NCBI GenBank assembly: GCA_004321885.1
Contig: SCQK01000010.1
Coordinates: forward strand, 1-14,582
From: Patescibacteria group bacterium
GTDB taxonomy: Bacteria > Patescibacteriota > Patescibacteriia > Magasanikbacterales > GWA2-37-8
Length of the DNA: 14,582 nt
Direction of reading: 5' to 3'
Of the stretch, positions 2 to 10,301 are shown piece by piece (positions within the stretch are counted from its first letter, which is position 1; each line of letters begins with the position of its first letter). The notes below the pieces were generated by a model. That model saw only the letters and a program-made list of their open reading frames with translations. It was not told the origin of the DNA and searched no databases. The position numbers were made by a program, and so were the translations under genes.

Positions 2-1564
2 GAAACGATGACAAACAGGAATGCCGGGACCCAGGACCCGGGAACATTGGTGGACGGGTCGTTTGAAATCGGCAGAAGAAATTACGCCTCCGGGTATTAT
101 TATTACACTGGTTCTATTGATGACGCGCGCGTGTATAATCGTGTTCTGTCGGCCAGCGAAATAATGCAACTATACAAAATGGGAGTGGCCAAGGTGGCCA
201 AAACCCCCACGCCGGCCGCCGGAAGCAACTCCCTCAAAACCGGCCTGGTGGGCTGGTGGACTTTTGACGGCGCCGATGTGACGACGAATACCACGACCGA
301 CAAAAGCGGGAACGGGAACAACGGGGCAAGAGGCGTTGGCACAACAGTTGCCACCGGCAAACTGGGACAGGCAATGAAGTTTAACGGCTCCACTGAAAGT
401 ATTTTGGTTACTGATTCGCCATCTTTAAGTATCACGGACAAAATTACTATTTCCGCCTGGGCCAAGTGGACAACCGGCGGTTCTGATTCCGACGCGTATC
501 TTCTAAGTAAAGGAACGGATAAGTATAATTTCCTTATTTATGCCGTGGACGCCGGCAAGATGACTTTTTTGATCAGCGCGTTGTCTCCAAGCACCACTTT
601 AAAAACAGTCGGTGCTTATAACAATAACAAATGGCATCTTTTTACAGGAACATACGACCCTAACGGCGGTACAAACAACATAAAAATATACGTGGATGGC
701 GTATTGGAAAATCAGGCAACTAAAACCGGTTCGCCATCCGACGACGCCAATGGTCTGGGGATAGGCAGATATGGCACTGGCGGGAATTATCGCTGGAATG
801 GCTCCATTGACGACGCCCGCGTGTACAATCGCGTCTTGACGGCTGCCGAAGTAATGCAACTATACAAAATGGGAGTGGCCAAGGTGGCCAAAACCCCCAC
901 TCCGTCCGCCGGCAGTAACTCGCTCAAAACCGGCCTGGTGGGTTGGTGGACAATGGATGGCAGGGATACAACGGCTACCGCCGTGAACGACAAAAGCGGT
1001 TCCGGCAATAATGGCACTCGGACAGGCGGCAAAGTCGCGAGCGGCAAATTGGGACAGGCAATAAAGTTTAATGGAAGCACAGAATACATTACCACGGTTG
1101 ATAGTCCGTTTGATTTTGGCACTGGCAATTTTACAGCCGCGGCCTGGTTCAAAGTCAGCACCCAAGCGGAAGCTAACGCGATTTTAGATAAGTATGGCGC
1201 CGGCGGCGCGGGAGACAAGGGGTGGATTTTGTGGGCTAATTCTACCGGGAACAATAAATTGCTGGGTTTTATTGATAATGGAAGCGTTGATATGACCGGA
1301 GCGACCTCGCTTGTTGTCGGGAGATGGTATCACGCCGCGCTGGTAAGAAATGGCGACATTGGTTATTTGTATTTGAATGGTGTCCAAGACGCAAGTTTAG
1401 GCGGGTTGGCCGCGAGAAATGCTGTTTCTAATGTAGCGATGCAGATTGGCTCAGAAAATGGCAGCGCGACCTATGCTTTTAACGGCTCTATTGACGACGC
1501 CCGCGTCTACAACCGCGCCCTGTCGGCCAGCGAAATAATGCAGTTGTACAAGATGGGGAGATAA
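2..1564 (+). CDS. 5'-partial surface-type protein built of tandem LamG (concanavalin A-like lectin/glucanase) jelly-roll domains
   Basis: ORF 8..1564 is open to the window edge (no stop in frame at 2..7). The product has three copies of the LamG C-terminal strand motif GSIDDARVYNR(V/A)L(S/T)A(S/A)E(I/V)MQLYKMG at about 229-aa spacing. Each copy is preceded by a beta-rich segment (..SGKLGQA(M/I)KFNGSTE.., ..WHLFTGTYD.. / ..WYHAALVRNG..). The first motif lies only about 35 aa into the ORF, so the first domain must begin upstream of the window. Stop is TAA at 1562..1564. Confidence 0.75.
   Translation, partial: ETMTNRNAGTQDPGTLVDGSFEIGRRNYASGYYYYTGSIDDARVYNRVLSASEIMQLYKMGVAKVAKTPTPAAGSNSLKTGLVGWWTFDGADVTTNTTTDKSGNGNNGARGVGTTVATGKLGQAMKFNGSTESILVTDSPSLSITDKITISAWAKWTTGGSDSDAYLLSKGTDKYNFLIYAVDAGKMTFLISALSPSTTLKTVGAYNNNKWHLFTGTYDPNGGTNNIKIYVDGVLENQATKTGSPSDDANGLGIGRYGTGGNYRWNGSIDDARVYNRVLTAAEVMQLYKMGVAKVAKTPTPSAGSNSLKTGLVGWWTMDGRDTTATAVNDKSGSGNNGTRTGGKVASGKLGQAIKFNGSTEYITTVDSPFDFGTGNFTAAAWFKVSTQAEANAILDKYGAGGAGDKGWILWANSTGNNKLLGFIDNGSVDMTGATSLVVGRWYHAALVRNGDIGYLYLNGVQDASLGGLAARNAVSNVAMQIGSENGSATYAFNGSIDDARVYNRALSASEIMQLYKMGR
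110..1564 (+). repeat. Intragenic tandem repeat inside the LamG gene. About 150-nt blocks of high nucleotide identity at 110..262 and 800..952 (period 690 nt). A third partial copy at 1484..1564 (period 684 nt)
   Basis: Direct comparison: ggttctattgatgacgcgcgcgtgtataatcgtgttctgtcggccagcgaaataatgcaactatacaaaatgggagtggccaaggtggccaaaacccccac.. versus ggctccattgacgacgcccgcgtgtacaatcgcgtcttgacggctgccgaagtaatgcaactatacaaaatgggagtggccaaggtggccaaaacccccac... These encode the domain end plus the VAKVAKTPTP(A/S)AGSNSLKTGLVGWWT linker. Confidence 0.8.
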
Positions 1565-1570
1565 GCTATG
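1491..1570 (+). repeat. 80-bp direct repeat, copy 1. Covers the last 25 codons of the LamG gene, its stop, and the RBS plus ATG
   Basis: 1491..1570 matches 2185..2264 at 77 of 80 positions (mismatches at 1512/2206, 1549/2243, 1565/2259). In this copy the terminal ATG (1568) opens only M-L-L-V-stop. Confidence 0.9.
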
Positions 1571-1586
1571 TTACTAGTGTAGTATT

Positions 1587-1865
1587 ATGAAAGCCGAAAA
1601 AGTGAAGGAGATAGTGATGTATTGGCGCAAAACCGCCGAGCACGACTACGAAACAATGCTTGGGCTATTTAGAATTAAACGATATTCTGACGCGTTGTTT
1701 TATTTTGACAAAGCGACTGTTAAACTGCTGAACACCTTTAATGATTTTAATATTAGATGCAGGTACCCTGAATACAAGCTGGCGTTTTACAAAAGATGCA
1801 CCAGAGGATACGCCGGCAGACAATTGAAAGAGATGAAAAAAATTTACCACGGCTTGGAAAAATAA
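1587..1865 (+). CDS. HEPN-domain protein, the putative toxin or substrate-binding partner of the adjacent nucleotidyltransferase. Alternative start at 1617, which has a GGAG RBS
   Basis: Small all-helical product. AEHDYETMLGLFRIKRYSDALFYFDKATVKLL fits the HEPN first-helix pattern (A..D...A..l...g.y..A.f....A.EK.LK). C-terminal ..NIRCRYPEYKLAFYKR.. fits the HEPN R-Y-P..Y motif. It is paired with a minimal-nucleotidyltransferase gene. AT-rich relative to flanks. Confidence 0.55.
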   Translation: MKAEKVKEIVMYWRKTAEHDYETMLGLFRIKRYSDALFYFDKATVKLLNTFNDFNIRCRYPEYKLAFYKRCTRGYAGRQLKEMKKIYHGLEK

Positions 1866-2179
1866 TATGTCCAAAAAAAGCAAAATTAATAGCGAAACAA
1901 TACGCGAAAAAATTAAAAGAAAATAATTTTTCATTTTTTGCCGTATATATTTTTGGCTCGCAAATTAAGGGGAAATCGGATAAGTGGAGCGACATTGATG
2001 TGGCTGTCGTTTCCGATAAATTTAGAAGAAATTACGATAAAAATAGGTTTAAGTTGTGGGACATACGTTTGGAGGTGGACAGCCGGATAGAGCCGCATGG
2101 TTTTTCAGTGAAAGATTTTAAGGATGACGCCAATCCGGTGGCTTATGAAATAAGAAAGACCGGAGTAAAAGTGGCGTAA
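1796..2179 (+). CDS. Minimal nucleotidyltransferase (MNT, Pol-beta superfamily), putative antitoxin partner of the HEPN protein
   Basis: Product has the nucleotidyltransferase signature ..FAVYIFGSQIKGKSDKWSDIDVAVVSD.. (hG[GS] followed by the D-x-D metal ligands). ATG 1796 is the only ATG/GTG/TTG start in this frame downstream of the frame-opening stop at 1769..1771, so the gene overlaps the HEPN gene by 70 nt. The overlap makes the exact start uncertain. Confidence 0.6.
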   Translation: MHQRIRRQTIERDEKNLPRLGKIICPKKAKLIAKQYAKKLKENNFSFFAVYIFGSQIKGKSDKWSDIDVAVVSDKFRRNYDKNRFKLWDIRLEVDSRIEPHGFSVKDFKDDANPVAYEIRKTGVKVA

Positions 2180-2184
2180 ATCAG

Positions 2185-2264
2185 TTGACGACGCCCGCGT
2201 CTACAGCCGCGCCCTGTCGGCCAGCGAAATAATGCAGTTGTATAAGATGGGGAGATAAACTATG
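2185..2264 (+). repeat. 80-bp direct repeat, copy 2. A dead duplicate of the LamG gene 3' end (VDDARVYSRALSASEIMQLYKMGR-stop), then the functional RBS/ATG of the 2262..2768 gene
   Basis: See copy 1. The reading frame of the duplicated gene end is not part of any long ORF. GGGGAG lies 9 nt upstream of ATG 2262. Confidence 0.9.
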
Positions 2265-2768
2265 CCAACAAAAAGACGAATTACTTCAATTCAGCCGGTT
2301 GAGGCGCCGCCGGAAATTGCGGCGAAAAAGACCGTGCCCAAGTGGGTGGTTTTTGTTTTGGTGGTTATTTTGCTCCTGGTTAGCGGCGCTTTTGTCTGGG
2401 CCTATGCCAACAACGTGAGCGTTTCCAAAAAACTAATCGTGGATTCGGTGGACGCGCAGAGGCAGGAAGTGAAGAACCAAATAAAAGAGCTGGTGGCGCA
2501 GGTGAACAGGCATATTGTTTTGCCCGAGGGCGAGGAACCGACCGTGGCCACGATAAATGATGCCGAGACCCTGGCCAAAACCCAGCCGTTTTACACCGGG
2601 GCGCATAATGGCGACAAAATTTTGATTTATGTTCGCGCGCAAAAGGCCTTTATTTACGACCCGAATCGCGATGTGCTGGTGAACGTGGGGCCGGTAAGTC
2701 TACAGCCCAAGCCCGCGGCTCCGGCGCAGGAGTCGGCGTCGAAAAAAACCGGCGCCACGACAGAGTGA
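2262..2768 (+). CDS. Hypothetical membrane-anchored protein. N-terminal single TM helix then a soluble domain
   Basis: ORF with a GGGGAG RBS. Product has the hydrophobic segment WVVFVLVVILLLVSGAFVWAY after a K/R-rich N-terminus, followed by a soluble domain ending in a P/A-rich tail. No recognisable family. Confidence 0.6.
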   Translation: MPTKRRITSIQPVEAPPEIAAKKTVPKWVVFVLVVILLLVSGAFVWAYANNVSVSKKLIVDSVDAQRQEVKNQIKELVAQVNRHIVLPEGEEPTVATINDAETLAKTQPFYTGAHNGDKILIYVRAQKAFIYDPNRDVLVNVGPVSLQPKPAAPAQESASKKTGATTE

Positions 2769-2787
2769 TGATGAAAGGCCGATTCTA

Positions 2788-2816
2788 TTGAAAGTTTAGG
2801 TTGTCCGATGTAGAAT
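2788..2816 (+). promoter_or_regulatory. Sigma70-like promoter TTGAAA-N17-TAGAAT. The predicted transcription start coincides with the A of ATG 2823 (leaderless transcript?)
   Basis: TTGAAA at 2788..2793, 17-nt spacer, TAGAAT at 2811..2816. The -10 ends 6 nt before ATG 2823. Confidence 0.4.
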
Positions 2817-2822
2817 GGAAGT

Positions 2823-3017
2823 ATGAAGAAAGAAAATAATAAGCACAAATTTTATAGAGTATATGCGAATCTGCCTCTGAATTTAAGGTCGGAAATAATT
2901 TTAGTTTTGCCCGGGAAAGGGCCTATTACTTGGAATGTAGCGTATTTAGAAATTGAAAACGAGACTGAATTGGGTGAAATAATTTTGGAAAAATTGGAGG
3001 CATTGCAAATAATATAA
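2823..3017 (+). CDS. Hypothetical small protein (64 aa), acidic C-terminus
   Basis: ORF directly after the promoter. AT-rich. No recognisable motif. First gene of a tightly packed four-gene cluster. Confidence 0.45.
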   Translation: MKKENNKHKFYRVYANLPLNLRSEIILVLPGKGPITWNVAYLEIENETELGEIILEKLEALQII

Positions 3018-3020
3018 AAT

Positions 3021-3233
3021 ATGGAAATTGCGCAAGAAATAAAGGATTTGGTTGTGGCCAGATTGAAAACACTACCGGAGAATACCGGAATTTCCATAGG
3101 GTCCATGGGGAATTTTAGCAAACAAGATTTAATTTCTCACGTGGAAGAAGGAGACGAAGTGGGTCAAAAAATCGCGGAAGTGGAACTGTCTTTTTTGCGC
3201 GGGTTGAAAGACGACATTCTGTATGAATCATAA
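3021..3233 (+). CDS. Hypothetical small acidic protein (70 aa)
   Basis: ORF begins 3 nt after the previous stop. Its stop overlaps the next gene's start by 11 nt (translational coupling). No recognisable motif. Confidence 0.45.
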   Translation: MEIAQEIKDLVVARLKTLPENTGISIGSMGNFSKQDLISHVEEGDEVGQKIAEVELSFLRGLKDDILYES

Positions 3234-3867
3234 AATATTAATTACCCGCCCCAATTACGATTTGACAACTCGTTATATTTCAAGTTGGGCCAAGAATATT
3301 ATTAAATTTGCCGAAGAAAAGGGAAGCGTGGTGCTGGATTTGGAAAAGGAGCGGGCGAATCGTAAAGAATTTGAAAGCATGATAAGAAAACATGAGCCAC
3401 CGTTGATATTTTTAAACGGACACGGCGATTATGATTTAGTTACCGGGCAGGAGGAAGACGTGTTGGTGCGCGTCGGCGATAATGAGACTTTGTTGGATTC
3501 AAAAGTTGTTTATGCGCTATCATGTCGTTCAGGCAAGAAGTTGGGCCCCGAGAGCGTGAAGCGCGGAGCTAAGGCCTACATCGGATATAAGGAGGATTTT
3601 ATTTTTTTATACAACGAAGAACAAAAATCCAGACCCGAACAAGATAAAACAGCCGAGATTTTTTCAGAGCCGTCAAATCAGGTAATGGTTTCTTTGTTAA
3701 AAAATCACACGGCGAAAGAGGCCTGCAAGAAAAGCAAGGAATCATATTTTCGGCGGATTAGAAAATTGCTTTATAGCAAAGCTACGAGCGCGGAGAGTGC
3801 GGTTGTTAGATTTTTAATTTGGGATATGCAAAATTTGGTTTGCTATGAGCAAGAGGCGCAAAAATAA
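3223..3867 (+). CDS. Putative caspase-like (caspase-hemoglobinase fold, clan CD-like) cysteine peptidase domain protein
   Basis: Predicted alternating beta/alpha order: KILIT, helix, VVLDL, helix, PLIFLNGHG (His-Gly after strand 3), then VVYALSCRSG (Cys after strand 4). This is the topology and dyad placement of caspase/metacaspase/gingipain-type peptidases (compare metacaspase H-Y-S-G-H-G and D-S-C-H-S-G). The His-Cys spacing of about 33 aa is on the short side. Call is tentative. Confidence 0.35.
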   Translation: MNHKILITRPNYDLTTRYISSWAKNIIKFAEEKGSVVLDLEKERANRKEFESMIRKHEPPLIFLNGHGDYDLVTGQEEDVLVRVGDNETLLDSKVVYALSCRSGKKLGPESVKRGAKAYIGYKEDFIFLYNEEQKSRPEQDKTAEIFSEPSNQVMVSLLKNHTAKEACKKSKESYFRRIRKLLYSKATSAESAVVRFLIWDMQNLVCYEQEAQK

Positions 3868-3904
3868 CAACAAAACAAAACCAAAGTATTAAGTCAAGGA
3901 GAGT

Positions 3905-6055
3905 ATGCGTGTCTTGGCAGAAGAAAATTTTGAGAAAGAAGTCAAGGAAAATTTTTTGTTTCAATTTTTCGTTCCCAAAGCCGGCGTTTATTTTATTGAA
4001 ATCAGCGCGTCAGCCAAGAGCTGGTGGCAGAATTTATTAAAGTTTCGTTCGTTTTTTCGCGATGATGATTTGGCTTTAAAAATAGACGAGTCCGGATTTG
4101 ACAAACTTTCCGGCAAACGGGGCATATTTGATGGTGAAGCGGCGTGGAACGGCAACAAGTTGAAGAGTTTGGAGCAAACTATTGTTTTTTTACTGCCGCT
4201 TGGCGCCGGGGCGCACAAAATACAATTTTTTTCCGACCAAAGACCGGTTCTAAAAAAAATTATTGTCTACGAAAGTGGGAGAAATATTTTATATTCGCCG
4301 TCACCCGCGTCGCCGCGGGATGGCAATCGCAGGCCATGGCTGACGTTCGCATTTAAGGACCTTGTGATAAAAAATCTAAAAGTGAAAGCCAAAGCGGACG
4401 CGGACAAAGACGATTCTGATATTAAACTTGTAATTAACGGTCAAGTTGAAAAAAACGAAGAGTCAAAATCGCACCATGGCTGGTATTGGTGCGGCCGTGT
4501 TTTGAAAGGGAAAGCTAAAATTTTTGATAAAAGTTTTAATCGTTCGGAAGGAAGCGCCCGTTTTATTGAATTTTGGACTGATGGAATGCCGTTGTTAGAA
4601 GAGATTAAAATGCGAGTGACGGAAAAGGGGGTTGAAAAAACCGGTCGGGTTGTCGTGCGTAAGGACATTGTCGGTTCGGGATTGTCGGAGGTAAACCTGC
4701 GCGCGGCGGCTGATGAGAATGGCGATATAACCGGGAAGATAAAAACAGGAGAAGAGGTGTTGATAGATGAAATAGCTGTTTCGGGTAGTAATGTGGCGGG
4801 TATGCTGTCAAATAATTGGCATGGAGTTTATTATAATGGAATGAGCGGGTATGTGCACTCTTCTCTCATAGAACTTGCGGGGCAAGAGAGAAAAAGAATT
4901 ACCGATTTTATTCAAACCAAAGCCGGAGAATTGGGGATTGATAAAAATTTAGCCTTGAATTTGGCTTACTGCGAATCAAAGTGGCTACCGTTCGCGATTT
5001 CGGAAACCGGGAATAAAGGCATTTTTGAACTCGGAGGGGATACAATAATTGAGATAAATGGGAAATTAGGCGGTAATATTCGCGACCCTTATGACCCGTG
5101 GCAAAATATTGACGGGGGCCTGAAATATTTGAGGTTTCTTTTAGAGAGATACAAAGACACAGAAAATAGTTTGGAAAAATCCATTACCGCGTGGAGCCGC
5201 GGACCGGACAGAGTGCCGTATAACAAGCCATTTGTTTACGCCGAGCAATCCAGAGGAGCGCAGGCGCTTCTTGATGGCGTTTTGAAATCAAAGGCAGGAG
5301 AGAATATATTAAAAGCACTCGGGGCGCTGGTTGTTTTTTTGATTTTAGGTTTTGGGGCCATTGCCTTCGCCTCAAGCGGCGACAACGCAAGGGAGCGGCT
5401 GTGGTATTTGAAATTGGAGCGCGGAGTTGAGCTTGGACTGGAGCACGCGGCCTGGCTCGTGGACATTGGCGAGGTTGACTTGGCGGACTTTGAAGATGAT
5501 TTTGATTTGGACGGCGAGTTTGAAAAAGTCCAATTTTTTGTTTTCCCCTCAAATGTTGATGACGGGTATTTTACCCGCGTATTTCTTTCGGCGACTGAAT
5601 ATTTTGACGTGGACGGCATATTTATAGAGGGCAAAGGTCTTGATTTAAACGGCGGCGGAGAAAAAGAGCTTTTTGTCAGGACTGTGAAAGATGATATTTT
5701 TAATTTGTATATTTTTAGTTTGCGGGATAAAAAATTGCGTTTGTTTCCAGTGTATGACAACGAGATTACGCGGGAAAATGTAAAGAGCATTAAGTCAAAA
5801 TTTAGAATAGAAAACACACGCACTGGTGATGGAGATGGGAATGAGGCGGTTGCCTTTATAGCCAAACGAGCCAATTATAAGGGAGAATATTGCGATTGGT
5901 ATAACACTTTGGAATATTACGAGTGGAATGGAGTCGGTTTTGAAAAAAGTAGGACAGAAGCAGAGCCGCTTTTTCCGGAGGGTCATTGCGCCGCCCCAAG
6001 CAGTAGACCCGAATTATATGGCCCTGCGCCCACCATACAATGGTCGGTGAATTAA
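3905..6055 (+). CDS. Multidomain protein. N-terminal beta-rich region, then bacterial SH3 (SH3b) domain, then SLT/GH23 lytic transglycosylase domain, then a single TM helix, then an acidic C-terminal domain
   Basis: AGGAGA RBS at 3895. SH3b match: VNLRAAADENGDITGKIKTGEEVLIDE...WHGVYYNGMSGYVHSSLIEL. SLT match: LAYCESKWLPFAISETGNKGIFELGG (catalytic E-S then A.S..G..G motif), DPYDPWQNIDGGLKYLRFLLERY (DP..NI..G..YL motif) and ITAWSRGPDRV (AYNAG-like motif). One hydrophobic helix ILKALGALVVFLILGFGAIAFASS at about residue 470. No N-terminal signal peptide. Confidence 0.8.
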   Translation: MRVLAEENFEKEVKENFLFQFFVPKAGVYFIEISASAKSWWQNLLKFRSFFRDDDLALKIDESGFDKLSGKRGIFDGEAAWNGNKLKSLEQTIVFLLPLGAGAHKIQFFSDQRPVLKKIIVYESGRNILYSPSPASPRDGNRRPWLTFAFKDLVIKNLKVKAKADADKDDSDIKLVINGQVEKNEESKSHHGWYWCGRVLKGKAKIFDKSFNRSEGSARFIEFWTDGMPLLEEIKMRVTEKGVEKTGRVVVRKDIVGSGLSEVNLRAAADENGDITGKIKTGEEVLIDEIAVSGSNVAGMLSNNWHGVYYNGMSGYVHSSLIELAGQERKRITDFIQTKAGELGIDKNLALNLAYCESKWLPFAISETGNKGIFELGGDTIIEINGKLGGNIRDPYDPWQNIDGGLKYLRFLLERYKDTENSLEKSITAWSRGPDRVPYNKPFVYAEQSRGAQALLDGVLKSKAGENILKALGALVVFLILGFGAIAFASSGDNARERLWYLKLERGVELGLEHAAWLVDIGEVDLADFEDDFDLDGEFEKVQFFVFPSNVDDGYFTRVFLSATEYFDVDGIFIEGKGLDLNGGGEKELFVRTVKDDIFNLYIFSLRDKKLRLFPVYDNEITRENVKSIKSKFRIENTRTGDGDGNEAVAFIAKRANYKGEYCDWYNTLEYYEWNGVGFEKSRTEAEPLFPEGHCAAPSSRPELYGPAPTIQWSVN

Positions 6056-6112
6056 AAAATTTTAGGAGATATATGTTAAATATTTTTAACGTAAAAAATC
6101 ATAACGGGAACC

Positions 6113-6191
6113 GCGATACCCCCTCCTCACCTCCCCCTTATAAAGGGGGAGGAGTCGCCGCCGCCGGTAATTCCTCCCCTATAAGGGGAGG
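6113..6191. repeat. Family-1 hairpin elements, two adjacent copies. ATACCCCCTC...CCTCCCCC-TTATAAA-GGGGGAGG at 6113..6152. A shorter CCTCCCC-TATAA-GGGGAGG at 6173..6191
   Basis: Perfect 8-bp stem with 7-nt loop at 6130..6152. The same 23-mer recurs at 8589..8611, and the 5' flank ATACCCCCTC recurs at 8575. Lies in the intergenic region after the 716-aa gene; no T-tract follows. Confidence 0.7.
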
Positions 6192-6270
6192 GACAACCCC
6201 CCACGCCAAAAATTTTGGTGTGGGGGTAAAGGGTGGGGTTAAAACAAATTTCACCAAATATCAGGACCCG

Positions 6271-7101
6271 GAAAAGGGGATGAGCGGCGGCCAGCTCAAA
6301 TGGAGTTTGTGGTTTTCGGGCCGTCGGGTGATTTTTTACCGGGCCGCGCTTATTTTTGTCGCGGCCGCGGCCATAATTATCTGGCTGTTCAGCCTGTGGC
6401 GTTGGGTATTTTTTATCATAGAAATTCCCGATGCCAGGCGCGTGCGCGCCGAGCTCGCCCGCTTTGACGATTATAGCATCATCAATCAACGCATCGGGTT
6501 TCAGCCGGTGCAGATTTTCGGCGCCCAGTTTTTGGCGAGCGGGAAAGACAAATACGACGTCGCGGCCGAGATGTTTAATCCGAACACGCGGTCAGTGGTG
6601 TTTTTTGATTATTATTTTTTTTATAATAATACCTCCACTCCAAAACAATCCGCGTTTTTATTGCCGGGCCAAAGGCGGCCGCTGGTGGCTTTGGGCCTGG
6701 CCGGCGCCGCGGGCGAGCCGGTTTTGCATATAGAAAACGTGAAGTGGAAAAAAATTTCCGCTCACGATGTCAGCGACCCGAAGCAGTATCAGGATTATCG
6801 CCTAAATTTCGCGGTGACGGATTTTGTTTTTTCACCGGCTTCGGAAAGCGGGGCCGATTTTCCGGCCGTGAAATTTAATTTGACCAATAACGGTCCGTAC
6901 AGCTATAATGCCCCCAAGTTTTTGATTGGGCTGACGCAAAATGAGGAGCTGGTGAGCGTTTTTAGGGCGGATTTTGCTTCGTTTGCGTATGGCGAGACAA
7001 AAAATATGGATATTCGGCTGTTTGTTCCGAATGCCTCGGCCGCGGGCGCGATTGTTTATCCGCTCATAAACATTTATGATAAGGAGGCCTATCTGCGATG
7101 A
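6271..7101 (+). CDS. Hypothetical membrane-anchored protein (N-terminal TM, then extracytoplasmic domain). Translationally coupled to the SEDS gene
   Basis: The ORF track gives 6040..7101, but the first 77 codons are low-complexity readthrough of the palindromic repeats. ATG 6271 is preceded by GAAAAGGGG. Product has a TM segment ALIFVAAAAIIIWLFSLWRWVFFII. Stop TGA overlaps the ATG of the next gene (ATGA at 7098). Confidence 0.6.
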   Translation, partial: EKGMSGGQLKWSLWFSGRRVIFYRAALIFVAAAAIIIWLFSLWRWVFFIIEIPDARRVRAELARFDDYSIINQRIGFQPVQIFGAQFLASGKDKYDVAAEMFNPNTRSVVFFDYYFFYNNTSTPKQSAFLLPGQRRPLVALGLAGAAGEPVLHIENVKWKKISAHDVSDPKQYQDYRLNFAVTDFVFSPASESGADFPAVKFNLTNNGPYSYNAPKFLIGLTQNEELVSVFRADFASFAYGETKNMDIRLFVPNASAAGAIVYPLINIYDKEAYLR

Positions 7102-8222
7102 TTCGCGATTCCCTTGTAAAATTACGCTTCTTTGACTGGAAACTGCTGGCCGCGGTTTTTCTGTTGATAGGCATGGGGCTGGCCGCTATTTACAGCGTGG
7201 ATTTGTCACGCGGCTCCGAGCTGGTTTATTTTAAAAAACAGGTTATCGCCGCCGGCCTCGGCGCTATTTTTTTGGTTGCGGCCGGGCTGACGCAAAGCTC
7301 TTTCTGGCGCTTCGCGGCCAAGTGGCTGTACCTTGGTTCGCTTCTCTCTCTGGCGGCGGTTTTACTTTTCGGTTCCACCATTCACGGCACCAGGGGCTGG
7401 TTTTCGGCTTTTGGCTTTTCTTTTCAGCCCGTGGAATTCGCGAAAATCGCGCTGATACTTCTGCTGTCCTACATTATTTATAAATTTGGGCGCAAGTTTG
7501 AGCGGCCGCTGTTTTTTTTCGGCACCGGCGCTGTTACTTTGCTCATGCTCGGCTTGGTTTTGCTTCAGCCTGATTTGGGCTCGGCATTTCTTTTGGGACT
7601 GGTGTGGCTGGGATTGGTATGGTTGGCCGGCGCGCGCCGGATTTTTATTTTGCTTTTGCTCTTGACGGTGATTTTGCTGGGGGTGGGCTCCTGGTATTTG
7701 GCGCTGAAAGATTATCAAAAAGAACGGCTCATCACTTTCGTGGACCCGGGCCGTGACCAGTTGAACGCGGGTTATAACATCACCCAGTCGGTAATAGCGG
7801 TGGGCGCTGGCAAATGGTATGGCCGCGGGCTGGGATTTGGCTCGCAAAGCCAGTTGCGTTTTTTACCAGAAGCCCAAACCGACTTTATTTTTTCCGTTAT
7901 CGGCGAAGAGTTGGGTTTTGCCGGCGCGGCCGTGATGCTGGCCCTGTTTGCCGTTGTTTTTTGGCGGCTGTTGGTTTTTATCCGCTCGGCCAAGGATGAT
8001 TTCGCGGCCAGCGCGTCCGCCGGCGCGCTCGTGCTTTTTTTGACTCAATTTTTTACCAATGTCGGGGCCAATATCGGCCTGGTGCCCATCACCGGCGTTA
8101 CCCTGCCCTTTATCAGCTACGGCGGTTCTTCACTGGCGATGAACCTGGCGCTGGTCGGCATTCTGCAGAGTCTGGCGCAGAGTACGCGAGCGCAAGTTGA
8201 CAAGGGAGCGGATTTGAGTTAA
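7098..8222 (+). CDS. ftsW: SEDS-family peptidoglycan glycosyltransferase (FtsW/RodA/SpoVE)
   Basis: Polytopic membrane protein with the SEDS signature region ..RFLPEAQTDFIFSVIGEELGFAGAAVMLALF.. and ..LPFISYGGSSL... The symbol is family-level; FtsW versus RodA cannot be decided from sequence. Confidence 0.85.
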   Translation: MIRDSLVKLRFFDWKLLAAVFLLIGMGLAAIYSVDLSRGSELVYFKKQVIAAGLGAIFLVAAGLTQSSFWRFAAKWLYLGSLLSLAAVLLFGSTIHGTRGWFSAFGFSFQPVEFAKIALILLLSYIIYKFGRKFERPLFFFGTGAVTLLMLGLVLLQPDLGSAFLLGLVWLGLVWLAGARRIFILLLLLTVILLGVGSWYLALKDYQKERLITFVDPGRDQLNAGYNITQSVIAVGAGKWYGRGLGFGSQSQLRFLPEAQTDFIFSVIGEELGFAGAAVMLALFAVVFWRLLVFIRSAKDDFAASASAGALVLFLTQFFTNVGANIGLVPITGVTLPFISYGGSSLAMNLALVGILQSLAQSTRAQVDKGADLS

Positions 8223-8236
8223 TATGTGAAGCGCGT

Positions 8237-8575
8237 ATGTCTTTTAATAAAAAAAGCAAGGGATTTTCCGAGTGGGAGCAGAGCGCGAAGATGCTCGGCA
8301 CCTGTACGGTTTGCGGGCGGGCCTATGGCTCGGGCAAAATGAAAATTCTGAAAAATGAAAAAAAGTCGCGCCTTTTGCACGCGACTTGCGCGTTTTGCAA
8401 CAGTCATTTTATGGCCATGCTGATGAAAATGGGCGGCGGGATGAGCACGATAGGCATGGTGACGGATTTGAGCCTGAATGATTCCAGGCGCCTGCTGGAT
8501 AAAGCGCCGATTACCGTGAATGAAGCCATAGAGGGGTATAAATATATCAATGAAAAGTTTTCACAAGCGAAGTAA
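8237..8575 (+). CDS. Hypothetical small protein with a CxxC...CxxC zinc-ribbon motif
   Basis: Product contains CTVCG and CAFCN 26 residues apart. No family recognised. Confidence 0.5.
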   Translation: MSFNKKSKGFSEWEQSAKMLGTCTVCGRAYGSGKMKILKNEKKSRLLHATCAFCNSHFMAMLMKMGGGMSTIGMVTDLSLNDSRRLLDKAPITVNEAIEGYKYINEKFSQAK

Positions 8576-8624
8576 TACCCCCTCTTGTCCTCCCCCTTAT
8601 AAAGGGGGAGGTTAGGTAGGGGTA
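8575..8624. repeat. Family-1 hairpin element: ATACCCCCTCTTGTCCTCCCCCTTATAAAGGGGGAGG with an imperfect outer stem TACCCCCT/AGGGGTAT
   Basis: The 23-mer core is identical to 6130..6152. Located between the zinc-ribbon gene stop and the rplY RBS. Confidence 0.7.
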
Positions 8625-8630
8625 TATAAT

Positions 8631-9365
8631 ATGTCGTTTTCTTTATCCGCTAAAACCAGAACAGAAAAAGGGGAGAAGGTGAGGAGCAAAACCGCTATTC
8701 CGGCTGTTGTTTATGGCGCCGGTTCAAAAGTTGAATCTTTGACTTTGAGCGCGGCTGATTTCGCCAAACTGTACCAGTCCGCCGGCGAGGCCAGTCTGAT
8801 TGATTTGGCCATAGACGACAAGGCAAACGGCAAGGTTTTGATTCACGCTCTTCAATACGACCCGGTAACGGACGCGGTGGCCCATGTTGATTTGCGCCGG
8901 ATAGATATGACCAAACCCATGACCGCCTCGGTGCGGCTGGTGTTTAGCGGAGAGTCGCCGGTGATAAAAGAGCAGGGCGGCACCGTGGTGCGTCACCTGG
9001 AAGAGGCGCAGGTGCGCTGTCTGCCGAAGGATTTAATCGCGCAGATTACGGTGGATTTGGGCGCTTTGAAAACTTTTGACGATGTGGTGCGCGTGCGGGA
9101 TTTGTCCTTGCCAGCCGGCGTGGCCATTATCAATCACGGGCCCGAGGATTTGGTGGTCAAAGCCCTGCCGGCCCTCACCGAAGAAGAAATCAAGGCCATG
9201 GAAGAAGCGGCTAAGCCGGCTGATTTGTCTGCCATAGAAATGGCCGGCAAGAAGAAGGAAGAAGAAGCGGCCGAGGGTGAAGAAGGCGCCGCTCTCGAGG
9301 GCGCGGCCAAGCCCGCGGCCGAGGCTAAGGCAGAAGAGAAGAAAAAAGAAGAACCGAAGAAATAA
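8631..9365 (+). CDS. rplY: 50S ribosomal protein L25 / general stress protein Ctc, with a C-terminal E/K/A-rich extension
   Basis: N-terminal region ..IPAVVYGAGSKVESLTLSAADFAKL.. and ..DAVAHVDLRRID...VRLVFSGESPVIKEQGGTVVRHLEEAQVRCLPKDLIAQITVDL.. match the L25/Ctc family. GGGG RBS. Confidence 0.85.
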   Translation: MSFSLSAKTRTEKGEKVRSKTAIPAVVYGAGSKVESLTLSAADFAKLYQSAGEASLIDLAIDDKANGKVLIHALQYDPVTDAVAHVDLRRIDMTKPMTASVRLVFSGESPVIKEQGGTVVRHLEEAQVRCLPKDLIAQITVDLGALKTFDDVVRVRDLSLPAGVAIINHGPEDLVVKALPALTEEEIKAMEEAAKPADLSAIEMAGKKKEEEAAEGEEGAALEGAAKPAAEAKAEEKKKEEPKK

Positions 9366-10301
9366 TTATTTTATAGAAATTATTACCAGCCGATCTCGCC
9401 CCGCGAGGTCGGTTTTGATTTCGCAGGATGAGGCGGGCAGGTATTTTTTTATCAGGGTTTTTATGGCTTCGCTTTGGCGCGGGTCTATTTCCAGGAGTAT
9501 TGTCATTGCGAGGCCGCTTGCGGCCGAAGCAATCCCATCCGTTATGGCAAGGGATTGCTTTGCTCCACTTCGTTCCGTTCGCAATGACAGTTGGGACAAC
9601 AGTTCTTCGTACAGCGACAACCCGTTTATCGCGTCCGCGACCAGCGCGCCCCGCGGCTCTTTTTGGATAGAGGGTTCTTTGCCGTATTGCTCGGCCGTGA
9701 GATAGGGCAGATTGGCGGTGATGATGAGCGAAGAATATTGAATAGAGAATTGAGAATTATGGATAACGGGTTCCAGCAAATTTCCATGCAGAAATTTTAT
9801 TTTTACCCCGTGCTTTTTGGCGTTTTTTTTGGCGACGCGTAGGGCCGCGCGGGAAATGTCTGTGGCGATAAGTTTGATTGACCCCCTCTTAGTCTCCCCC
9901 TTAGGCGCGCTTCGCGCGCGGGAAGCAAGGGGGAGAGAACGAGCGACCGCAATCGGCATGCATCCGCTTCCCGTTCCTACGTCAATCAAAATCGTCTTCT
10001 CTATTCTCAATTCTCTATTCTCAATTCTTCGCACAACCTCCTCCACCATCAATTCGGTTTCGGGCCGGGGGATTAAGACATTTTTGTTCACCAAAAAATC
10101 CAGGCCGTAAAATTCCTTGTGTCCGGTGATGTAGGCGATGGGCCAGCCGCGCTCGCGGAGCCGGCAGTAGTATTTGAACTTCACCCGTTTCCAAAAACTC
10201 GGTTTGTATTCCGGGTGCGCCAAGATAAATTCGCGCGATTTGCCGATAGCGTGCGCTAAAAGAATTTCCGATTTAAGGTTTTCTAAACGTGAAAAAATCA
10301 T
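9366..10301 (-). CDS. prmC: Release factor glutamine methyltransferase PrmC (HemK). Carries two in-frame insertions that coincide with palindromic elements
   Basis: Motifs ..ILIDVGTGSGCMPIAVA.., ..LIITANLPYL.. (NPPY-type) and the C-terminal ..DLAGRDRLV... Extra segments LPLASRARSAPKGETKRGS and TERSGAKQSLAITDGIASAASGLAMT map exactly onto the repeats at 9881..9937 and 9502..9588. Confidence 0.85.
   Translation of the reverse strand: MIFSRLENLKSEILLAHAIGKSREFILAHPEYKPSFWKRVKFKYYCRLRERGWPIAYITGHKEFYGLDFLVNKNVLIPRPETELMVEEVVRRIENRELRIEKTILIDVGTGSGCMPIAVARSLPLASRARSAPKGETKRGSIKLIATDISRAALRVAKKNAKKHGVKIKFLHGNLLEPVIHNSQFSIQYSSLIITANLPYLTAEQYGKEPSIQKEPRGALVADAINGLSLYEELLSQLSLRTERSGAKQSLAITDGIASAASGLAMTILLEIDPRQSEAIKTLIKKYLPASSCEIKTDLAGRDRLVIISIK
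9502..9588. repeat. Family-2 palindromic element: GTCATTGCGAGG, GGCCGCTTGCGGCC, GAAGCAATCCC, loop, GGGATTGCTT, ...CGCAATGAC. Right arm degenerate. Sits in-frame inside prmC
   Basis: Nested inverted repeats read directly. Shares ends and inner arms with the copy at 10886..10978. On the minus strand it encodes ..LSLRTERSGAKQSLAITDGIASAASGLAMT... Confidence 0.75.
9881..9937. repeat. Family-1 related hairpin: ACCCCCTCTTAGTCTCCCCCTT with a 10-bp stem TCTCCCCCTT/AAGGGGGAGA around a GC-palindromic loop GCGCGCTTCGCGCGC. Sits in-frame inside prmC
   Basis: The 5' part matches the family-1 flank ACCCCCTCTT(G/A)T(C)CTCCCCCTT seen at 8577 and 6117. Encodes the PrmC insertion ARSLPLASRARSAPKGETKRGS. Confidence 0.7.

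What the first reader, a model, noticed from the sequence alone, without database searches (positions are those of the whole stretch)
3905..6055. Lytic transglycosylase with SH3b domain but no signal peptide, a single mid-protein TM helix and a large acidic C-terminal domain
The SLT catalytic motifs (CES...A.S..G..G, DP..NI..G..YL, AW..GP) and the SH3b motif are unambiguous. Both should act on peptidoglycan outside the membrane. Yet the N-terminus (MRVLAEENFEKEVK..) has no signal peptide. The only hydrophobic helix lies after the SLT domain. About 250 residues of D/E-rich sequence follow it (..DLADFEDDFDLDGEFEK..). Two topologies are possible: N-out type III membrane protein, or a cytoplasmic lytic domain released only on membrane disruption (endolysin-like logic). 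Either is unusual. The roughly 240-aa N-terminal region may consist of two related beta-rich segments (DDDLALKIDESG.. / DDSDIKLVINGQ..), possibly carbohydrate-binding.
Basis: partly seen in the sequence, partly recalled or inferred. Interest (0 to 1): 0.55.

Follow-up and report, generated by a model that had tools for sequence, protein, structure and literature searches.

The report
Signal-less cell-wall cutter fused to membrane anchor
This gene from an ultra-small (Patescibacteria) bacterium encodes a cell-wall-cutting enzyme with no export signal, fused to a single-pass membrane protein that in relatives is a separate neighbouring gene. The enzyme is therefore most likely made on the inside of the membrane and kept away from the wall until the membrane is breached, as phage lysis enzymes are.

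Summary
ORF 3905..6055 (716 aa) has this domain order:
- two homologous CBM-like beta-sandwich modules (residues 1-241);
- SH3b (261-322);
- an SLT lytic-transglycosylase domain with an invariant catalytic Glu357;
- one strong TM helix (471-492);
- a folded, mildly acidic FG-GAP-like domain (about 507-690).

There is no signal peptide. The N-terminus is a structural beta-strand of the first module.

The architecture is the norm for a large family that carries lineage names only from Patescibacteria. The family has at least 399 clusters at 50% identity and no phage relatives. The N-terminal module always starts at the first Met and is always followed by an SLT-like or SleB-like lytic transglycosylase.

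Short members (about 400 aa, no TM) are almost always followed, within -35 to +19 nt, by a gene for a 171-310-aa protein. That protein has a K/R-rich N-terminal TM anchor and a beta-propeller-like ectodomain. The query-type FG-GAP domain also occurs as such a separate protein. The query is therefore a natural fusion of a two-gene module.

The K/R bias and the split forms indicate an N-in/C-out topology, which places the lytic half in the cytoplasm. The best model is a latent, membrane-tethered, endolysin-like autolysin gated by its TM partner. How it reaches the wall and what it does for the cell are both unproven.

The parts
3896..3903 (+). Shine-Dalgarno-like AAGGAGAG just upstream of the ATG at 3905
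   Evidence: Read directly from the sequence. It supports 3905 as the true start, and there is no earlier in-frame start after the preceding stop.
3905..6055 (+). Whole gene, 716 aa: fused form of the 'signal-less lytic transglycosylase + single-pass membrane protein' module
   Evidence: It is identical to NCBI hypothetical protein EPN28_02820 (Patescibacteria group bacterium).
3905..4279 (+). N-terminal beta-sandwich module 1 (residues 1-125), CBM6/CBM35-like jelly-roll. No Pfam or NCBIfam model matches it.
4280..4627 (+). N-terminal beta-sandwich module 2 (residues 126-241), homologous to module 1
   Evidence: hhalign of the two halves: probability 96.7%, E 3.3e-10.
4685..4870 (+). SH3b domain (residues 261-322)
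4910..5215 (+). SLT (GH23, family-1-like) lytic transglycosylase domain (residues 336-437). The catalytic Glu357 codon is at 4973-4975.
5315..5380 (+). Single transmembrane helix (residues 471-492), predicted N-in/C-out. It corresponds to the N-terminal anchor of the separate 'B' protein in split relatives.
   Evidence: KD 2.57. A helix spans 464-487 in the AF2 model. The position is conserved in homologues. K/R bias is shown, and the split forms.
5423..5974 (+). C-terminal FG-GAP-like beta-rich domain (residues about 507-690) with three DxDxDG-type motifs. It is the predicted ectodomain.
   Evidence: FG-GAP_3 hits 11 of 12 family C-domains, best E 4.5e-7. AF2 pLDDT is about 75-85. The domain's HMM also hits separate N-anchored proteins L054 7131-7847 (E 5e-11) and L049 2215-3042.
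6040..7101 (+). Downstream gene, overlapping by 16 nt as called: an unknown single-pass membrane protein (TM at residues 102-120). It is followed by FtsW/RodA (7098..8222). It is context only, not a conserved partner.
   Evidence: It shows no homology to family B proteins (hhalign probability 1.3%). The adjacency is not seen in other loci.

Best explanation
The gene encodes the fused form of a two-component module seen, where a lineage is named, only in Patescibacteria.

Component A is residues 1-470: two CBM-like beta-sandwiches, SH3b and an SLT lytic transglycosylase. It has no export signal and is made in the cytoplasm. Component B is residues 471-716: a single-pass, N-in/C-out membrane anchor carrying an FG-GAP-like ectodomain.

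In this protein the muralytic half is therefore tethered to the inner face of the cytoplasmic membrane. It is separated from peptidoglycan by the bilayer while the cell is intact, and so acts as a latent autolysin. It could reach the wall only when the membrane barrier is locally or globally breached. The breach would most plausibly come from oligomerisation of its own TM/ectodomain part. That is holin-like logic, as in phage endolysins with a C-terminal TM domain, or in holin/endolysin pairs re-used by cells.

Shown: the domain anatomy, the conserved catalytic residues, the absence of any N-terminal signal across the family, the split/fused equivalence, the charge bias around the TM, and the absence of phage context.

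Inferred: the N-in topology, the sequestration, and membrane-breach-dependent access. The physiological purpose is not known. Candidates are programmed autolysis, local wall opening, and release of cell contents.
For: 1. No signal peptide.
- The N-terminus is a structural strand of a confidently modelled domain.
- The N-domain starts at or within about 10 residues of the first Met in nearly all of 56 genome loci, with no N-terminal TM helix scored before it.
- None of 142 further cluster representatives has a TM helix in its first 40 residues.

2. The enzyme is under selection as a peptidoglycan glycan-strand cleaver.
- The catalytic E-S motif is invariant.
- The same N-domain is always joined to one of two unrelated lytic-transglycosylase folds: SLT-like (122 proteins) or Hydrolase_2/SleB-like (53 proteins).

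3. The split and fused forms are equivalent.
- 15 of 17 short members are followed at -35..+19 nt by a 171-310-aa protein with an N-terminal TM helix.
- These proteins align with the TM + C-terminal part of fused forms, e.g. E 2e-21.
- The query-type C-domain HMM hits two such separate proteins.

4. Topology.
- K/R counts in the 15 residues flanking the TM are 99 vs 63 and 113 vs 58, with N>C in 20 of 26 proteins.
- Several split B proteins start with tails such as MKKIIKK.. directly before the TM helix; K/R are 35 before the TM against 17 after it across the 11 scored.
- FG-GAP-type and weak, sub-threshold beta-propeller-like matches mark the ectodomains. Such domains are typical of extracytoplasmic proteins (established knowledge).

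5. Precedent. Phage endolysins M4Lys and Enc34 ORF39 have an N-terminal muralytic domain, no signal and a C-terminal TM domain. Only the full-length proteins are lytic or toxic. M4Lys lyses cells alone and independently of Sec, and Enc34 ORF39 does so without the holin (PMC7143992, PMC8943055).

Cellular autolysins without a signal peptide (pneumococcal LytA, B. subtilis CwlC) are established knowledge.
Against: - Every domain on the N side (CBM-like, SH3b, SLT) is of a kind normally found outside the membrane. A permanently tethered enzyme with only about 30 residues between the catalytic domain and the TM helix has no obvious route to the wall.
- For the query itself the K/R count is uninformative (3 vs 4). 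The topology call rests on the family.
- The TM/ectodomain part matches no holin family.
- No dedicated topology predictor and no experiment was available.
- In this window the gene sits directly upstream of FtsW/RodA. That would suit an extracellular wall-remodelling role, although the adjacency is not conserved elsewhere.
Confidence: 0.5

Rival explanations
1. N-out (type III) topology. The 470-residue N-terminal part is translocated without a signal peptide. It works as a membrane-anchored extracellular lytic transglycosylase on the cell's own wall, for example alongside FtsW/RodA. The FG-GAP-like domain would then be cytoplasmic.
For: - All N-side domains are extracytoplasmic types.
- The gene is probably co-transcribed with a membrane protein and FtsW/RodA in this window.
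- The query's own charge bias is neutral.
Against: - The family charge bias points the other way.
- Split relatives have no TM helix at all on the enzyme, and the TM is the K-rich N-terminal anchor of the partner.
- Translocation of a multi-domain, about 470-aa N-tail without a signal is unprecedented in bacteria (established knowledge; known N-tails reach about 100 aa).
- FG-GAP-type domains are typically extracellular.
- The FtsW adjacency is not conserved.
Confidence: 0.15
2. SleB/YpeB-like pair. The B ectodomain acts as a chaperone-inhibitor that holds the lytic transglycosylase inactive on the outer face of the membrane. The enzyme gets there by an unknown non-classical export route.
For: - The operon organisation mirrors sleB-ypeB: a lytic transglycosylase followed by an N-anchored membrane protein. 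Many members carry a SleB-type catalytic domain.
- YpeB inhibits SleB by direct contact (bioRxiv 10.64898/2026.06.01.729290).
- Sub-threshold PliI (lysozyme-inhibitor) hits occur in 9 of 12 C-domains.
Against: - In fused proteins a single TM helix puts the enzyme and the ectodomain on opposite sides.
- No export signal exists on any A protein.
- The B ectodomains of different subfamilies are not homologous to one another. That is odd for a specific inhibitor of conserved catalytic folds.
- The PliI hits are short motif-level matches below the cut-off.
- There are no PepSY domains.
Confidence: 0.12
3. It is a genuine phage or prophage lysis gene: an endolysin fused to its holin, sitting in an integrated element.
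For: - The SLT domain hits PHROG endolysin and lytic tail families.
- The gene lies in a stretch of lower G+C (0.40-0.46) next to core genes at 0.50-0.54, and close to a HEPN/nucleotidyltransferase pair.
- Y1 transposase-like genes adjoin relatives in 8 loci.
Against: - The N-domain has no relative in 50,697 phage genomes or in IMG/VR.
- Foldseek against viral structures gives only generic jelly-roll hits, TM-score <=0.33.
- No phage structural, terminase or integrase gene appears among the Pfam-annotated genes of the four fetched contexts or among the recurrent neighbour clusters of about 60 loci.
- The family is spread across many Patescibacteria classes, with several paralogues per genome.
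Confidence: 0.08
4. Gene-model artefact: two adjacent genes (enzyme and membrane protein) merged by a sequencing or assembly error in this contig.
For: Related genomes do carry the two parts as separate genes only 3-19 nt apart. One relative (L008) is visibly frameshifted.
Against: - About 20 independent full-length fused homologues align through the junction at 40-48% identity.
- 73 of 80 long cluster representatives have the same single late TM helix.
- There is no internal Met or start near the TM in the query (read from the translation).
Confidence: 0.03
5. The N-terminal part stays in the cytoplasm and has a non-lytic job there, such as processing imported wall fragments. It never touches the sacculus.
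For: Predicted cytoplasmic location. Patescibacteria scavenge many building blocks (general knowledge; PMC8080830).
Against: - Polymer-binding modules (two CBM-like domains and SH3b) and two alternative lytic-transglycosylase folds point to polymeric peptidoglycan as the substrate.
- No cytoplasmic lytic transglycosylase is known.
- Obligatory coupling to a membrane protein with an ectodomain would be left unexplained.
Confidence: 0.07

Closest known systems
Family-1 (GH23) lytic transglycosylases: Slt70, MltC, MltE, MltF
   Different: Those enzymes are exported by Sec as soluble periplasmic proteins or lipoproteins. This one has no signal. It also has a novel duplicated N-terminal beta-sandwich, an SH3b domain, and a TM helix after the catalytic domain followed by an FG-GAP-like domain. 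NCBIfam MltF and MltC scores are far below the equivalog cut-offs.
Phage endolysins with a C-terminal transmembrane domain (Salmonella phage BSPM4 M4Lys; Hafnia phage Enc34 ORF39)
   Same: A signal-less muralytic domain is followed by a membrane segment. In those proteins only the full-length form is lytic or toxic. M4Lys lyses cells alone and independently of Sec, and Enc34 ORF39 does so without the holin (PMC7143992, PMC8943055). This is the closest working analogy.
   Different: They have a different catalytic family, are small (about 26 kDa for Enc34 ORF39), have no large ectodomain after the TM segment, and sit in phage lysis cassettes of Gram-negative hosts. Here the gene is chromosomal, is named only from Patescibacteria, has four extra domains, and has no phage relatives.
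Holin + endolysin pairs, including the class III T4 holin T and cell-domesticated versions (type 10 secretion systems)
   Same: In split relatives a signal-less wall hydrolase gene is directly followed by a small single-pass membrane protein with a short cytoplasmic N-tail and a roughly 150-aa ectodomain. That is the architecture of T4 holin T (established knowledge). Domesticated cassettes are reviewed in PMC9527704 (listed).
   Different: The membrane partner has no homology to any holin family. Its ectodomain is beta-propeller-like and varies between subfamilies. Covalent fusion of enzyme and membrane partner is not a feature of holin systems.
SleB-YpeB of endospore formers
   Same: A two-gene operon in which a lytic transglycosylase (Hydrolase_2 in many family members) is followed by an N-terminally anchored membrane protein that controls it.
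   Different: SleB has a signal peptide and meets YpeB outside the membrane, and YpeB uses PepSY domains. Here there is no signal and no PepSY domain, and fusion through one TM helix puts the two parts on opposite sides.
SAR (signal-anchor-release) endolysins
   Same: A muralytic enzyme is held inactive by a membrane tether until the membrane is de-energised. The query's TM helix is rich in Gly, Ala and Ser (11 of 22 residues, read from the sequence).
   Different: The SAR domain is N-terminal and Sec-exported, so the enzyme already lies outside. Here the TM helix follows the enzyme and the predicted orientation is the opposite. The Gly/Ala richness is not conserved in homologues.

Membership tests
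SLT / GH23 family-1 lytic transglycosylase | Sequence match to the SLT domain above the curated threshold | tested here: met
   PF01464, 52.2 bits against cut-off 21.3, residues 336-437.
SLT / GH23 family-1 lytic transglycosylase | Catalytic glutamate in the E-S motif, plus the downstream G-[LI]-x-Q and A-[YW]-N-x-G-type motifs | tested here: met
   C356-E357-S358, K371-G372-I373 (Q375-L376 in >=90%) and A429..G433 (>=90%) are invariant or nearly invariant in 19 homologues.
SLT / GH23 family-1 lytic transglycosylase | Lysozyme-like alpha-helical fold superimposable on solved lytic transglycosylases | tested here: met
SLT / GH23 family-1 lytic transglycosylase | Produces 1,6-anhydro-MurNAc ends from peptidoglycan | not testable with these tools
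   Needs an enzyme assay with muropeptide analysis.
SLT / GH23 family-1 lytic transglycosylase | Sec signal peptide or lipoprotein signal, as in the characterised cellular members | tested here: not met
   No N-terminal hydrophobic segment. The same holds for the whole family.
Bacterial SH3 (SH3b, PF08239) | Match to the SH3_3 profile and an SH3-like fold | tested here: met
CBM6/CBM35-type carbohydrate-binding modules | Beta-jelly-roll fold | tested here: met
CBM6/CBM35-type carbohydrate-binding modules | Sequence membership or demonstrated ligand binding | tested here: not met
   No Pfam or NCBIfam hit for residues 1-245. Only a sub-threshold GH115_C hit appears in two relatives. Binding is not testable.
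FG-GAP / FG-GAP_3 repeats | Profile match with DxDxDG Ca-binding-type loops | tested here: inconclusive
   11 of 12 family C-domains hit FG-GAP_3, but of the members scanned individually only one reached the cut-off (27.8 against 26.9). The query's own C-domain gives no hit at E<=1. Three DxDxDG-like motifs are visible in the alignment.
Phage endolysin with C-terminal TM domain (M4Lys/Enc34 type) | Signal-less muralytic domain N-terminal to a TM segment | tested here: met
Phage endolysin with C-terminal TM domain (M4Lys/Enc34 type) | Encoded in a phage lysis cassette, with relatives in phage genomes | tested here: not met
   No phage or IMG/VR relative of the N-domain. Contexts are chromosomal.
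Phage endolysin with C-terminal TM domain (M4Lys/Enc34 type) | TM-dependent, holin- and Sec-independent lysis | not testable with these tools
   Needs expression experiments.
Holin | Homology to a known holin family | tested here: not met
   PHROGs hits of the query lie only in the SLT region. Seven split B proteins have no holin hit in Pfam.
Holin | Small membrane protein encoded next to a signal-less wall hydrolase | tested here: met
   15 of 17 short family genes are followed at -35..+19 nt by an N-anchored 171-310-aa protein. In the query the two are fused.
Holin | Forms membrane lesions that release the hydrolase | not testable with these tools
   Needs lysis and membrane-permeability assays.
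SleB-YpeB module | Enzyme with a signal peptide and a partner with PepSY domains that meet on the outer face | tested here: not met
   No signal and no PepSY domain. The single TM helix in the fusion separates the two parts.

The most novel reading that the evidence does not exclude
Patescibacteria carry a lineage-wide, non-phage 'self-gated lysin'. A cytoplasmic lytic transglycosylase is coupled, by fusion or by an adjacent, closely spaced (possibly translationally coupled) gene, to a single-pass membrane protein. That protein's variable beta-propeller-like ectodomain senses an outside cue such as host contact, wall state or phage attack. It then opens the membrane for the enzyme, giving receptor-triggered autolysis or local wall breaching.

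Alternatively, the family uses a still unknown export route that moves a multi-domain, 470-residue N-terminal part across the membrane without a signal peptide.
Probability: 0.25. Interest if true: 0.8.

Novelty: new variant of a known kind. Interest (0 to 1): 0.55.

Why it matters
Cell-wall hydrolases must cross the membrane to work, and cells normally give them a Sec signal. Here a whole family breaks that rule in a consistent way. It has at least 399 clusters at 50% identity, and those with named lineages come from many classes of Patescibacteria.

If the sequestration model is right, these reduced, host-dependent bacteria keep a built-in, membrane-gated lytic device of cellular rather than phage origin. 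It might serve in autolysis, DNA or nutrient release, division, or the interaction with host cells.

The family also defines two things. One is a new duplicated N-terminal domain that has no Pfam or NCBIfam model. The other is a clean natural gene-fusion ('Rosetta stone') link between a lytic transglycosylase and a membrane partner. That link gives experimenters a defined two-protein system to test.

Tried and rejected
- **Conserved neighbours.** FtsW/RodA adjacency is seen only in this window. The recurrent neighbours are Y1 transposase-like genes (8 loci), LysM-M23 peptidases (7 loci), MerR + DUF4325 (6 loci) and an 84-aa two-TM protein (5 loci). None is universal.
- **Phage origin of the N-domain.** tblastn against 50,697 phage genomes gave no match. 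An IMG/VR scan gave 18 pattern hits, none confirmed. Foldseek against BFVD gave only generic jelly-rolls, TM-score <=0.33.
- **Anti-phage defence.** PADLOC gave no hit for the gene, its neighbours or a short relative. The only hit in the window is the nearby nucleotidyltransferase.
- **PliI lysozyme-inhibitor lead for the C-domain.** The hits are 25-30-residue, sub-threshold matches on the DxDGDG motif. Rejected as evidence of an inhibitor.
- **Homology between ectodomains.** The query's FG-GAP-like C-domain is not homologous to the ectodomains of Hydrolase_2-type partners or to the downstream window protein: hhalign probabilities 0.1-1.3%.
- **PDB profile search with the C-domain.** Only weak FG-GAP-type matches to YesW and YesX, E 0.006-0.06.
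- **Cytoplasm-specific domains.** A search for family members carrying such a domain on either side of the TM helix, which would fix the topology, found none.
- **Cleavage site after the TM helix.** The query has AFA|SS, but it is not conserved in homologues.
- **RNA families.** Rfam gave no hit in the window.
Full report
**Observation**

The ORF at 3905..6055 (+) runs from the first possible start after an upstream stop and encodes 716 aa. An SD-like AAGGAGAG lies at 3896-3903. Pfam finds SLT at residues 336-437 (52.2 bits, cut-off 21.3) and SH3_3 at 261-322 (27.2 bits, cut-off 27.0).

A Kyte-Doolittle scan finds one TM-grade segment, 471-489 (score 2.57). The only other peak is 17-35 (1.25). 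AlphaFold models that segment as beta-strands of a well-predicted domain. The first 32 residues contain seven acidic residues. There is therefore no signal peptide and there is exactly one TM helix.

The 224 residues after the helix have 19% D/E and net charge -18. They are modelled as a folded beta-rich domain with pLDDT about 75-85, so they are not a disordered acidic tail.

**Domains**

The C-terminal domain carries three DxDxDG-type loops. FG-GAP_3 hits 11 of 12 family members (best E 4.5e-7), although the query's own copy falls below detection. Hits to the lysozyme inhibitor PliI are short, sub-threshold matches to the same motif, and I do not count them as evidence.

**The family**

The protein is identical to a hypothetical protein of a Patescibacteria MAG. 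About 20 full-length homologues (40-48% identity, 690-735 aa) share the same order of parts and the same single TM helix.

A second group shares only the N-terminal double module. In that group it is joined to Hydrolase_2 (SleB-type) or to divergent SLT-like domains. A profile of the N-domain finds 399 clusters (at 50% identity) in 1.84 billion representative proteins. It also finds 56 loci in species-representative genomes. Wherever the record title names a lineage it is Patescibacteria: Parcu-, Yanofsky-, Moran-, Kuenen-, Falkow-, Magasanik-, Uhr- and Nomurabacteria. Some MAG titles look generic.

No relative exists in 50,697 phage genomes or in IMG/VR. Fold search against viral models gives only generic jelly-rolls.

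In the 56 loci the N-domain starts at or within about 10 residues of the first Met in nearly all cases. In 142 further representatives, none has a TM helix in the first 40 residues. Of 80 long proteins, 73 have exactly one late TM helix, and 26 short ones (360-449 aa) have none. The central domain is SLT-like in 122 proteins and SleB-like in 53. The 'unknown' middle of P0022-type proteins shows the YQESR/IMQ/WLY motifs of a divergent SLT.

**The key finding: split and fused forms**

Of 17 short family genes with downstream sequence, 15 are followed on the same strand at -35 to +19 nt by a gene for a 171-310-aa protein. That protein's N-terminus is a short K/R-rich tail plus a TM helix. The two exceptions are a frameshifted long gene and one odd case.

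These 'B' proteins align with the TM + C-terminal part of fused Hydrolase_2-type proteins. For example, L012 B residues 2-182 align with L041 393-574 at E 2e-21. An HMM of the query-type C-domain hits two such separate proteins, L054 7131-7847 (E 5e-11) and L049 2215-3042 (E 1.6e-4). Each lies downstream of a short N-domain + SLT gene.

The query is thus the fused version of a conserved two-gene module. It is not an assembly artefact, because the fusion recurs in dozens of independent sequences and aligns through the junction. The ectodomains of different subfamilies are not homologous to each other: hhalign probability 0.1%. They carry FG-GAP-like repeats or only weak, sub-threshold beta-propeller-like matches.

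**Topology**

K/R residues in the 15 positions flanking the TM helix favour the N side:
- 99 vs 63 in the first set;
- 113 vs 58 in 26 fused genome-locus proteins, with N>C in 20 of them;
- 35 vs 17 in the split B proteins, several of whose N-tails read MKKIIKK.. directly before the TM helix.

By the positive-inside rule (established knowledge), B is N-in/C-out. In the fusion, everything before the helix is therefore cytoplasmic. The query's own count (3 vs 4) is neutral, so this conclusion rests on homology. The short A proteins have neither a signal nor a TM helix, and so start out as cytoplasmic proteins in any case.

The alternative is N-out translocation of a folded, four-domain, 470-residue N-tail without a signal. 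This has no bacterial precedent, and it cannot apply to the split forms.

**Mechanism**

Two unrelated lytic-transglycosylase folds are used interchangeably behind the same polymer-binding-type modules. This argues that the substrate is polymeric peptidoglycan.

An enzyme of that kind made in the cytoplasm and obligatorily coupled to a single-pass membrane protein recalls phage lysis logic. The closest characterised cases are endolysins with a C-terminal TM domain. Full-length M4Lys lyses cells on its own and independently of Sec, Enc34 ORF39 does so without the holin, and in both only the full-length protein is lytic or toxic (PMC7143992, PMC8943055). Other cases are holin/endolysin pairs, including cassettes domesticated by cells. 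The split B proteins have the gross architecture of the T4 class III holin, but no sequence relation to any holin.

I therefore propose a latent, membrane-tethered autolysin whose access to the wall depends on its own TM/ectodomain partner. This step is inference. The short linker between catalytic domain and TM helix, and the 'extracellular' character of every domain, remain unexplained.

**Rivals**

- An N-out membrane-bound lytic transglycosylase working with FtsW/RodA.
- A SleB/YpeB-like enzyme-inhibitor pair on the outer face. The single TM helix of the fusion contradicts this.
- A true prophage lysis gene. The absence of phage relatives and of phage genes in the contexts examined argues against it.
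- A gene-model artefact.
- A non-lytic cytoplasmic role.

**Context in the window**

The gene is preceded by an unknown 214-aa gene 37 nt upstream. It overlaps the called start of an unknown single-pass membrane protein, which in turn overlaps FtsW/RodA. G+C is 0.40-0.46 across 3001-6000, against 0.50-0.54 for the core genes downstream. None of these neighbours is conserved next to relatives. Nearby wall peptidases in related loci do carry N-terminal hydrophobic signals, so the lack of a signal in this family is specific to it.

**Verdict**

The gene belongs to a large, undescribed family, named so far only from Patescibacteria, of signal-less lytic transglycosylases coupled to a membrane partner. 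The cytoplasm-facing, endolysin-like reading is the best supported (confidence about 0.5) but is untested. I rate it a new variant of a known kind, with moderate-to-good interest.

Noticed in passing
window 1587-1865 and 1796-2179 (+): Overlapping HEPN-domain (92 aa) and nucleotidyltransferase (127 aa) ORFs, which look like a HEPN/MNT toxin-antitoxin pair. The nucleotidyltransferase hits PADLOC candidate-defence models PDC-S09 (E 1.5e-10).
   Followed up: partly
window 3223-3867 (+): A 214-aa protein directly upstream (37-nt gap) has no Pfam, NCBIfam, PHROG, PADLOC or PDB match. By eye it has ..FLNGHGD.. and ..YALSCRSG.. motifs that recall a His/Cys protease dyad. This is an unverified reading.
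   Followed up: partly
window 6040-7101 (+): The downstream gene as called overlaps the finding by 16 nt and begins with an odd Gly/Pro-rich 80-residue stretch. A start at Met81 (MSGGQLKW.., about nt 6280) would give an N-anchored single-pass protein with a 230-aa unknown ectodomain. Its stop overlaps the FtsW/RodA start (7098). It matches no known family.
   Followed up: partly
window about 1000-6000 versus 6000-10000: G+C steps from 0.40-0.47 to 0.50-0.54 near position 6000. The lytic gene and the upstream accessory genes may therefore be a later acquisition next to core genes (FtsW, L25, PrmC, RF1, S2).
   Followed up: no
L001 10137-10853; L005 7318-7998; L009, L010, L011, L015, L056, L059: Y1 transposase-like genes (PF01797, 219-243 aa) lie within 1.5 kb of the family gene in 8 of about 60 loci, on either side. 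The reason is unknown.
   Followed up: partly
L003 9971-10228 and 10234-11598; likewise L029, L030, L034, L039: A conserved 81-85-aa two-TM protein and a LysM-M23 peptidase sit on the opposite strand just downstream of the module in a subset of loci. The small protein is holin-sized.
   Followed up: no
L001 8001-16338: Paralogous genes cluster here. One is an SH3b-SLT fused form. A second is a 624-aa fused form with the same N-domain. Others are 541-aa and 335-aa proteins with a different N-terminal domain (..YSGDS[IV]GRDIRVEIE..), which in P0021 replaces the usual N-domain in front of SH3b-SLT-TM-FG-GAP.
   Followed up: partly
L008 5977-8023: A relative of the query is split by a frameshift inside the SLT domain. 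The second ORF starts at ..AWNVGYNDVPV.., so this is either a pseudogene or a sequencing error.
   Followed up: partly
window 8-1564 (+): A 518-aa protein with three Laminin_G_3 (concanavalin-like) repeats lies at the start of the contig (E 6e-59).
   Followed up: no
P0171 (801 aa, from the representative library): A distant relative carries six N-domain-like stretches together with fn3 and other beta-sandwich domains. The module type therefore also occurs in what looks like a large surface protein.
   Followed up: no
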